This document shows, piece after piece, positions 11,537-14,852 of a stretch of DNA of 64,000 nt. A program made the position numbers and the translations under genes. The notes under the pieces were generated by a model. That model was not told the origin of the DNA and ran no database searches. It worked only from the letters and a program-made list of their open reading frames with translations. Source of the stretch: a virus (lineage: Duplodnaviria; Caudoviricetes); the IMG/VR virus record IMGVR_UViG_3300028591_000183, positions 10,239 to 74,238 of that record; one strand, given 5' to 3'. Position 1 is the first letter of the stretch. Each line of letters opens with the position of its first letter.

Positions 11537-11719
11537 TTACTTCCCACTTCCCACTTCTTTGTCTTTAGGCACTTCTCGTTTCCCGAAATAAAGTCGTTCC
11601 ATTTTATCACGATTTGCTTTCTGCATTGTTTCAGCGTATTGTGCGTCATCCATAGCTTCTTTCAGCCTTTGCGCTGTTATATCCCTGTCATTGTCATAGT
11701 TTATCTGCCTTTTATTCAT
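11537..11719 (-). pseudogene. 60-aa ORF at the cI position; probable fusion of a repressor N-terminus and an integrase C-terminus
   Basis: Good RBS (GAGGT) and promoter; ITAQRLKEAM resembles the XRE repressor first helix; QYAETMQKANRDKMERLYF resembles an integrase tail; lies between attP and cro. Confidence 0.45.
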
Positions 11720-12871: not shown

Positions 12872-12954
12872 CTAGAAATATTTGTCTGTATCATTGGTGG
12901 GTTGTTACCCATCAATGTATTAATCCTTTCAGAAAGAAAACAAAATTATAAAGT

Positions 12955-13090
12955 TTCCGTGCCTAGCCATACCCAACTAAGTCAATTAACATGATGGCTC
13001 TAATAGCACATACTATAAAGAACAGGACAATATAGGACAATACAGGAAAAGACAGGACAAGACAATATATAAAAAATTAACAACTCACCT
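12955..13090 (-). repeat. Degenerate pentamer-periodic tract in inverted orientation relative to the main array
   Basis: Minus strand reads AGGTGAGTTGTT (identical to 14251-14262), then TGT-NN pentamers (13020-13070) and ...TTAGT TGGGT ATGGC TAGGC AC. Confidence 0.55.
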
Positions 13091-13218
13091 GTGATGCAGA
13101 CAAATAAAAAGCGATTAAGTTCGCACCTTAACCGCTTTTAGGAGTTGGAATTACTATCAGTATGATTTCTAACTCCGATTCTAACACATTATTTCAAATT
13201 AGAAAAGGAGAAAAAATT

Positions 13219-13890
13219 ATGGCAACAAAGAAAACAGAAAGTAACGTATTTGAGATTAAACCCTTGGATATTCAGAAGTTATCAATTCGTATTAAGGGTG
13301 ACTCGCCATTGATTGTTCACGCTTGGAGCGAAAAAGCAAAAAAACAAATTCTTGATAAACAGATGAAGATTACAAAAACTTCTGCGAAAGAAGCACGAAA
13401 TCCATATCGAGAGTTTATTGATTCAATGTATTGGCTTACGCCAAAGCCCGAAGCTACACCCGATGCGTTTGCAGAAGCCGTAAAGAATGGCGCAAAGTGG
13501 GGTTTTCCTGTGACGGGAATTAAGCAAAGTGCTAATTCAACAGCATACAGACTTGGTTGGACTCCTAATCAAACCATGCTTAGATGCGCTTATTTTATAG
13601 AGAGTGAGTATGGAGAATTGTTTGAAATCAAGGGTTCAATTCCCGAAATACGTGAAGATAACGTCACAATCGGCATGGGAACTGCGGATTTGCGTTATCG
13701 TGCAGAATATAAAGATTGGTATGCAGATATTGTTGTAAGTTATAACAGGTCGGGTGCATTAACACTTGAACAGATACTTAACATAATCAACGCAGGTGGC
13801 TATTCGTGCGGACTTGGCGAATGGAGAGCCGAAAAAGACGGTATTTTTGGGCGTTATCATATTGAGTCTAGCAACACTATTAGCGATTAA
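13219..13890 (+). CDS. Cas7/RAMP-like phage protein (Vipr-like putative RNA-guided effector)
   Basis: IRIKGDSPLIVHAW N-terminal strand, LRYRAEY, C-terminal glycine loop AGGYSCGLGEWRAEKDGIFGRY; abuts the pentamer array; RBS AAGGAG. Confidence 0.7.
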   Translation: MATKKTESNVFEIKPLDIQKLSIRIKGDSPLIVHAWSEKAKKQILDKQMKITKTSAKEARNPYREFIDSMYWLTPKPEATPDAFAEAVKNGAKWGFPVTGIKQSANSTAYRLGWTPNQTMLRCAYFIESEYGELFEIKGSIPEIREDNVTIGMGTADLRYRAEYKDWYADIVVSYNRSGALTLEQILNIINAGGYSCGLGEWRAEKDGIFGRYHIESSNTISD

Positions 13891-13897
13891 GCGATTT

Positions 13898-14330
13898 GGC
13901 AGTTTTGGTATGGTTCTCTATGGTGGGTTTTGTTATGGTTACGTTGGTTTTGGCAGTTATGGTGCGTTATGTTGCGTTAAGGAAAGGTGCGCTATGGCGG
14001 GATTTGGTAAGGCAGTTAAGGCGAGGTGCGGTTAGGTATGGTAGTTTCGGGTTTGTTAAGTTGAGGTATGGTGAGTTATGGCAGTTACGGCACGTTAAGT
14101 TCAGTTGAGGTAAGTTCAGTTTCGGTGAGGTTTGTTATGGTATGGCAGTTTTGGTGGGTCATGTTATGGCAGGGTCTTGTACGGTCTTGTTAGGTTTGTT
14201 GGGATAAGGCAGTTAAGGTTAGGTGAGTCGAGGTTTGTTTAGTCGAGGTTAGGTGAGTTGTTGCAGTTATGGTGTGTTTAGGTAGATTTGGGTAAGTTAT
14301 GATTAGGTCAGTTTAGGCAAGGCGTGGTTC
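13898..14330 (+). ncRNA. Array of 7 pentamer-coded units (putative guide RNA array)
   Basis: Units start at (G/T)GCAGTT: 13898, 13952, 14011, 14080, 14144, 14208, 14262; spacings 54/59/69/64/64/54 are all 5n+4; bodies are 10-13 NN-G(G/T)Y pentamers. Confidence 0.85.
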
Positions 14331-14357
14331 TTATTAAATTTAAAAAGGAGTTTGGAT

Positions 14358-14852
14358 ATGGTTTATTCATGGAAAACATTTCAATATTCTGTTTCTGCTG
14401 ATGTTGCAGGAAAAGAATTTGAAAAGATTGAAAAAAAATACGGGAAAGTTACATCGGAACTGCTTTTGCAAAACGCAGAACCTATAGAATCCCCACTACA
14501 TGAGCTTTTCGAGTGGGATGATGCTGTAGCAGGTCGTAAATACCGACTTTCACAGGCTACAAATATTATCATCAATCTTGCTGTAGAGGTTGAAAAGGAA
14601 CAGAAACCTAAGAAAATCCGTGCGTATTATAACGTGAGTGATACCGAGAAAAAGGGACGTTTTATTAACGCTGAAACAGCATTTTCAAATCCCGATACAA
14701 AAGAAATTATTCTGAAAAGAGCTTATCGTGAAATGCAATCTTTTGTGCAGAAATACGAGAACCTTACAGAATTTGCGCCTGTATTTAAGGCGATAGAATC
14801 AATCAAAAAAGACATATTAGGAGATGAAGCAGATGAACAACTTGAAGATTGA
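14358..14852 (+). CDS. Conserved phage protein downstream of the array (putative accessory gene)
   Basis: MVYSWK...PLHELFEWDDAVAGRKYRLSQA; RBS AAGGAG 7 nt before ATG 14358. Confidence 0.75.
   Translation: MVYSWKTFQYSVSADVAGKEFEKIEKKYGKVTSELLLQNAEPIESPLHELFEWDDAVAGRKYRLSQATNIIINLAVEVEKEQKPKKIRAYYNVSDTEKKGRFINAETAFSNPDTKEIILKRAYREMQSFVQKYENLTEFAPVFKAIESIKKDILGDEADEQLED

What the first reader, a model, noticed from the sequence alone, without database searches (positions are those of the whole stretch)
14262..14396. Array unit 7 decodes (read 2, skip 1) to the start of a homolog of the adjacent gene
Unit 7 dinucleotides are AT GT TA AG TG AA AT TA CA TA AA GT TC. The first two bases of codons 1-13 of the next gene (ATG GTT TAT TCA TGG AAA ACA TTT CAA TAT TCT GTT TCT, 14358-14396) are AT GT TA TC TG AA AC TT CA TA TC GT TC. 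That is 9/13 dinucleotides and 20/26 bases identical, starting exactly at the ATG, and one mismatch (AG vs TC) can still encode Ser. My rough binomial estimate is about 1e-6 per position; the match falls 28 nt from the array. The guide appears to specify MVY(S/R)(W/C)(K/N)(I/M)Y(Q/H)Y(K/N)VS, skipping wobble positions. It could target a rival phage's copy of this locus while the resident copy escapes, or weakly autoregulate (inference).
Basis: partly seen in the sequence, partly recalled or inferred. Interest (0 to 1): 0.9.

Follow-up and report, generated by a model that had tools for sequence, protein, structure and literature searches.

The report
VIPR guide aimed at relatives' vap
This repeat unit is a guide-RNA gene of a phage VIPR system, a CRISPR-related DNA silencer described in 2026; its two-letters-in-five code spells the start of the system's own accessory gene as related phages write it, not as this phage does, so it is a real but already known kind of phage-versus-phage weapon.

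Summary
Observation confirmed. Unit 7 (14262-14330), read 2/skip 1, matches the start of the next gene at 9/13 dinucleotides and 20/26 bases. This is the best site in the 74-kb genome; shuffles reach 9/13 at this locus with frequency 2e-5.

The locus is a VIPR system: a Vipr protein (matches SUSP1 Vipr, Cas7-like fold), a staggered GGY/NN array, and an accessory gene (vap). The code is the published 1-nt skip rule.

The 13th dinucleotide is probably not read. Over the other 12, vap genes of related phages match 21-22/24 bases and the resident copy 18/24. The odd AG occurs as an AGT serine in one relative. No perfect target was found.

Relatives carry seven further guides that hit vipr genes in codon phase and match their own copy worse. 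Here, unit 3 decodes to Rha genes and unit 1 to a conjugative VirB4 gene.

Best reading (about 80%): the guide silences rival relatives' vap and spares its own. Binding and expression are untested. Guides against rival VIPR systems are in print, and this scan noted a vap-directed guide in another phage. New member of a known kind.

The parts
13219..13890 (+). vipr gene, 223 aa, RAMP/Cas7-like guide-binding protein
   Evidence: phmmer hit to PDB 36pp_D SUSP1 Vipr, E 6e-5; hhalign to a Felixounavirus Vipr 98.35%, E 1e-14, 173 columns; AlphaFold model matches type III Csm (Cas7-family) chains, E 3.5e-6
13898..14330 (+). vrRNA array of seven staggered units; spacings 54, 59, 69, 64, 64, 54 (all 5n-1)
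   Evidence: 70 of 81 constant triplets are GGT, GTT, GGC or GTC
14262..14328 (+). Unit 7: 7-nt junction plus 12 read dinucleotides; guide for codons 1-12 of vap. The TC at 14329-14330 is probably not read
   Evidence: near-identical guide in L015, L043, L044
14358..14393 (+). Resident copy of the unit-7 target: 18/24 bases, mismatches at dinucleotides 4, 7, 8, 11
14358..14852 (+). vap accessory gene, 164 aa, mostly helical, no Pfam or NCBIfam name
   Evidence: phrog_15946 E 9e-21; vipr and vap searches each return 33 phage records with the same genus tally, adjacent in the rows shown; model
14011..14079 (+). Unit 3: guide decoding to a conserved motif of Rha-family phage genes
   Evidence: 29 of 29 IMG/VR hits (20 distinct sequences) are sense, in frame and share one motif; 22-24/24 over 12 dinucleotides; PF09669 E 2e-34 for one of them; no Rha in own genome
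13898..13951 (+). Unit 1: guide decoding antisense to a VirB4-like conjugal transfer ATPase gene
   Evidence: 10 of 13 hits, only two distinct sequences; NF045971 CD1110 family, 1137 bits, for one of them
13654..13692 (+). Site in this phage's vipr that is matched 24/26 by the first guide of relative L015 (own copy 20/26)

Best explanation
Unit 7 encodes a VIPR guide RNA. Vipr subunits coat the RNA at its constant triplets and present the 12 dinucleotides to double-stranded DNA, skipping every third base. That mechanism is shown for SUSP1 and P. fulva VIPR and is inferred here from homology. The decoded target is codons 1-12 of the vap gene as found in related phages (shown by sequence: 21-22 of 24 bases, skips on wobble positions). 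Binding there would repress a co-infecting or resident relative's vap and so disarm its VIPR system (inferred). The early recombination genes that follow vap in the same direction might also be affected (inferred). The phage's own vap differs at four dinucleotides, three of them in the 3' half where SUSP1 R-loops begin, so it probably escapes (inferred). The match to the adjacent gene is residual homology to the real target.
For: Vipr homology and fold. Array grammar. Non-self vap alleles score higher than self, 22 and 21 versus 18 of 24, and 0 of 100,000 shuffles reach 21 or more in 12 vap genes. The AG at position 4 exists as an AGT serine in L041/L042. Dinucleotides 7-12 match 12/12 bases in L004 but 8/12 in self, and SUSP1 assembly runs 3' to 5'. 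Clade control: of 115 distinct guides, 6 reach 90% or more with skip 1 and none with skip 0, skip 2 or shuffling; all six lie in vipr or vap, sense and in codon phase. For all eight independent vipr- or vap-directed guides the own copy scores lower, usually below a dozen or more other loci. Units 3 and 1 decode to coherent gene families by the same rule. The guide is kept in three sister phages. SUSP1 needs vap1 as well as vipr against its satellite.
Against: No allele matches 24/24 (16, 32, 40, 66). In L043 and L044 dinucleotide 9 has drifted away from the target, which suggests relaxed selection. No binding, expression or mismatch-tolerance data exist for this system. Comparing self with the best of many non-self copies favours non-self by construction. 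Shared hosts of this phage and the matched relatives are not established. This vap shows no detectable homology to SUSP1-type vap1 (104), so its necessity is only inferred.
Confidence: 0.8

Rival explanations
1. Autoregulation: the guide is kept to bind the resident vap start weakly and damp expression of vap and the genes after it.
For: The site is 27 nt from the array end, covers the start codon and is the best site in the genome. All four carriers of the guide have the same 17-18/24 self site.
Against: 75% is below the 80% cut used for natural targets, and no self-targeting passed that cut in the published clades. The guide follows rival alleles at positions 7, 8 and 11. Other anti-VIPR guides in the clade also match self worse.
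Confidence: 0.08
2. Relic: the guide was acquired against a vap allele that has since changed or gone, and it now works poorly. Possibly it was once self-matching and the resident gene changed to escape.
For: No perfect target. Dinucleotide 9 differs among sister copies (CA, CA, CT, TA). L016 has the same resident allele, but its visible array end lacks the guide.
Against: Eleven of twelve dinucleotides and the scaffold are conserved in four phages. Present-day alleles still match 92%, similar to the 89% mean reported for a functional SUSP1 guide. The vap tree is unresolved at this node, so no order of events can be inferred.
Confidence: 0.1
3. Chance resemblance, or a local duplication of the gene start.
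For: The genome-wide shuffle rate is only 0.8-3%. Unrelated 20-22/26 hits arise in very large databases.
Against: Locus-level rate is 2e-5. Homologs match better than self. The likeness exists only in the gapped code, since skip 0 and 2 give nothing. The same rule decodes other units.
Confidence: 0.02

Closest known systems
VIPR systems (Vipr + vrRNA + vap); type II of Escherichia phage SUSP1 and the P. fulva prophage; bioRxiv 10.64898/2026.04.26.720920 and 10.64898/2026.04.26.720927; PDB 36pp
   Same: Homologous Vipr; pentamer guides with 10-13 repeats; 1-nt skip code with wobble alignment; phage-borne two-gene locus; some guides target other VIPR systems (reported for the P. fulva clade).
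   Different: The array lies between vipr and vap. Units abut with a 1-nt register shift (the paper's staggered arrays, fig. S18) and show no structured tail here. GTT is about as common as GGT. The vap is not detectably related to SUSP1-type vap1. The type could not be assigned.
Anti-VIPR vrRNAs of SUSP1-family phages; bioRxiv 10.64898/2026.10.15.759431
   Same: Guides aimed at rivals' VIPR genes, including early codons of vipr; wobble-aligned; lower self-match reported for the vrRNA-targeting guides.
   Different: Those are mostly solo guides in vipr-null phages aimed at vipr or vrRNAs. Here a complete system carries a guide against the vap start codon region, which the passages I read do not describe.
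Class 1 CRISPR Cas7/Csm3 backbone with crRNA spacers
   Same: RAMP fold; array of guides against mobile elements.
   Different: No CRISPR repeats or contiguous spacer pairing; the code is gapped.

Membership tests
VIPR system | Vipr protein: stand-alone RAMP homolog | tested here: met
VIPR system | vrRNA of 9-16 pentamers, constant GGY or related triplet alternating with variable NN | tested here: met
   10-13 dinucleotides per unit; 70 of 81 triplets GGT, GTT, GGC or GTC
VIPR system | Adjacent accessory gene (vap) that travels with vipr | tested here: met
VIPR system | Targets follow the 1-nt skip rule with skips on wobble positions | tested here: met
   6 of 115 guides at 90% or more with skip 1; none with skip 0, skip 2 or shuffles; units 3 and 7
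VIPR system | Phage or prophage location | tested here: met
   virus record of 74,238 bases; Erf and DUF1351 neighbours
VIPR system | vrRNAs are expressed and loaded on Vipr | not testable with these tools
   no RNA holder listed
VIPR system | Guide-directed dsDNA binding and transcriptional repression | not testable with these tools
   needs binding or reporter assays
VIPR type II (SUSP1 clade) | vap1 accessory protein | tested here: inconclusive
   hhalign of the vap alignment against one Felixounavirus vap1: probability 1%; a single-sequence template may miss remote homology
VIPR type II (SUSP1 clade) | Each vrRNA ends in a conserved structured 3' tail | tested here: not met
   units abut directly with 5n-1 spacing; a hairpin tail follows only the first unit in relatives and is absent here
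CRISPR-Cas class 1 | Direct repeats with contiguous spacers | tested here: not met
   the array is a pentamer code with no repeat-spacer structure; contiguous decoding gives no hits

The most novel reading that the evidence does not exclude
In this phage clade VIPR works as a systematic kin-discrimination weapon. Complete systems keep a first-position tailed guide against relatives' vipr and sometimes a last-position guide against the vap start, each matching its own copy worse. Close sisters target one another: L015 shares this phage's vap allele and unit 7, yet its first guide matches this phage's vipr at 24/26. The same array also aims at a conjugative-element VirB4 gene, which would extend VIPR targets beyond phages and satellites.
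Probability: 0.5. Interest if true: 0.5.

Novelty: new member of a known kind. Interest (0 to 1): 0.33.

Why it matters
It is an independent natural confirmation of the VIPR code in a lineage far from SUSP1, with staggered arrays that appear tail-less. It supplies a natural allele series for one guide (17 to 22 of 24 bases, self included) with which mismatch tolerance and self-avoidance can be measured; I found no such data in the preprint passages I read. Targeting the vap start suggests this uncharacterised accessory protein matters in competition. The code and the idea of anti-VIPR guides are already in print, so it does not open a new class.

Tried and rejected
Two partial patterns in metagenomes: 0 hits. 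Partial-pattern hits in GTDB genomes and IMG/VR (41, 42) were unrelated to vap or vipr and mostly ran into stop codons; rejected as chance.

Relatives cannot be drawn for a virus record.

Unit 1 as an anti-vipr guide (its reverse strand resembles the Vipr N-terminus): rejected, best 7/10 residues, and a better target family was found. Unit 6: no target found in IMG/VR, or in 31 related records at up to 2 mismatches. Unit 2's 18/22 hit in L007 is within the shuffle range.

Fold searches for vap gave nothing clear in the PDB, only unnamed viral relatives. No RNA holder was listed; the one run laid covers only 14331-14623 as a contig. The promoter and terminator scan was no better than shuffles. 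The vap tree (quick method, target residues left out) is unresolved at the relevant node and gives no order of events.

Full report
OBSERVATION. The tract 13898-14330 parses into seven units. Each opens with a 7-nt junction and continues as variable dinucleotides alternating with a constant triplet; start-to-start spacings are 54, 59, 69, 64, 64 and 54. Of 81 triplets, 70 are GGT, GTT, GGC or GTC. This is the best skip-1 site for the unit in the whole 74-kb record; skip 0 and skip 2 give at most 18 and 17. Shuffles reach 9 dinucleotides in 0.8% of cases genome-wide and in 2e-5 within the locus. The last dinucleotide is probably outside the guide: it is TT in three sister copies, and terminal dinucleotides across the clade are 75% TT, AT or AA. 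I therefore score on 12 dinucleotides, where self is 18/24.

WHAT THE LOCUS IS. The upstream 223-aa protein hits SUSP1 Vipr in the PDB (36pp_D, E 6e-5), aligns to a Felixounavirus Vipr at 98.35% probability over 173 columns, and its model matches Cas7-family chains of type III complexes. The downstream 164-aa gene accompanies it in the fetched relatives and in annotated phages. This is the VIPR architecture of bioRxiv 10.64898/2026.04.26.720920. That paper established the 1-nt skip rule in vitro and in vivo, wobble alignment, transcriptional repression, staggered arrays with 1-nt overlap, and guides against other VIPR systems. The 5n-1 spacing here fits the staggered form (inference from the figure legend). 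The vap shows no detectable likeness to SUSP1-type vap1, so the type is unassigned.

TARGET OF UNIT 7. No exact target was found. A protein search gave 66 vap homologs, several with N-termini closer to the decoded string than the resident one. At DNA level L004-L006 and L040 match 22/24, differing only at serine 4 (TC instead of AG). L041 and L042 also match 22/24 and do carry AGT at serine 4, differing by a GTG start and one base at codon 11. L007-L014 match 21/24, L001 20/24 and the resident allele 18/24. Every guide dinucleotide is thus seen in a natural allele. None of 100,000 shuffles reached 21 in a set of 12 vap genes. The resident's mismatches fall at 4, 7, 8 and 11: bases of dinucleotides 7-12 match 8/12 in self and 12/12 in L004. 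In SUSP1 the R-loop grows from the 3' end of the guide, so these mismatches are well placed for escape; this step is inference. The same guide sits last in the arrays of L015, L043 and L044, all with the same resident allele; position 9 has drifted in two of them.

CLADE CONTROL. I extracted 115 distinct guides from the fetched loci and scanned about 0.6 Mb of masked sequence, both strands counted. Six reached 90% or more with skip 1 and none with skip 0, skip 2 or 575 shuffles; all six lie in vipr or vap, sense and in codon phase. An 80% cut is not selective at this scale, since 18% of shuffles pass it. With later loci added, the first unit targets vipr in L001, L011, L012, L013, L015, L041 and L043 (88-96%), and the own copy is always lower (58-83%). 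Taking the best non-self copy inflates this gap, but self usually also ranks below a dozen or more loci. These first units are followed by a hairpin tail that the window's array lacks. L015's first guide matches this phage's vipr at 13654-13692 (24/26 against 20/26 for its own).

OTHER UNITS. A 21-base gapped pattern from unit 3 gave 29 IMG/VR hits, 20 distinct, all in frame in one motif, one of them 24/24. A representative is Rha family (PF09669) and this genome has no Rha. Sister copies of unit 3 vary at position 6 between AG, CG and TG, the same three forms seen in the targets. Unit 1 hits the antisense strand of a VirB4-like conjugal transfer ATPase gene (NF045971) in 10 of 13 hits, but these are only two distinct sequences, so this is a lead. 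Units 2, 4, 5 and 6 remain unassigned.

MECHANISM. Shown here: array grammar, Vipr homology, code, better-matching non-self alleles and the clade pattern. Taken from the preprints: filament assembly, dsDNA binding, repression, and the need for vap1 in SUSP1. Inferred: unit 7 is expressed, represses relatives' vap and spares self (0.8). Rivals are a relic guide (0.1), autoregulation (0.08) and chance (0.02). The vap tree does not resolve whether the resident allele changed after the guide arrived.

NOVELTY. The system, the code and anti-VIPR guides are published; bioRxiv 10.64898/2026.10.15.759431 describes guides on early vipr codons and lower self-match for vrRNA-targeting guides. A guide on the vap start in a complete system is not described in the passages I read, but this scan noted a vap-directed guide in another phage (unchecked here). 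Verdict: real, correctly decoded, a new member of a known kind; interest 0.33.

Noticed in passing
window 13898-13951 (unit 1): Decodes antisense to a motif in VirB4-like conjugal transfer ATPases (NF045971); the guide is conserved in nine fetched relative loci. Would be a phage guide against conjugative elements; only two distinct target sequences seen.
   Followed up: partly
window 14011-14079 (unit 3): Decodes to Rha-family phage genes (29 of 29 hits); position-6 variants in sister phages match the target variants.
   Followed up: yes
window 14208-14261 (unit 6): Most conserved guide of the clade (18 fetched loci), usually near the array's 3' end; no target found.
   Followed up: partly
L001:2069, L011:4149, L012:736, L013:3689, L015:1060, L041:9242, L043:1294: The first array unit is an anti-vipr guide followed by a hairpin tail, each at a different vipr site or variant; the window's array lacks such a unit.
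   Followed up: partly
window 12879-13106: A 228-bp insert with 29-nt inverted ends (86% complementary) upstream of vipr, absent from fetched relatives; its minus strand has a low-complexity pentamer tract and a hairpin. Possibly a MITE-like element or a decayed inverted guide.
   Followed up: partly
window 11537-11719: Only a 60-aa ORF lies where relatives L007, L011, L013 and L041 have an XRE repressor and an integrase, suggesting the lysogeny module is deleted.
   Followed up: no
L015 versus window 13219-14852: L015 has a vap 98% identical but a Vipr only 68% identical to this phage's, pointing to recombination within the array between vipr and vap.
   Followed up: no
L001:2764-2990 and L004:843-1184: Extra sequence lies between the array and vap in some relatives (a short ORF in L001, about 340 nt in L004 that the near-identical L005 lacks).
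   Followed up: no
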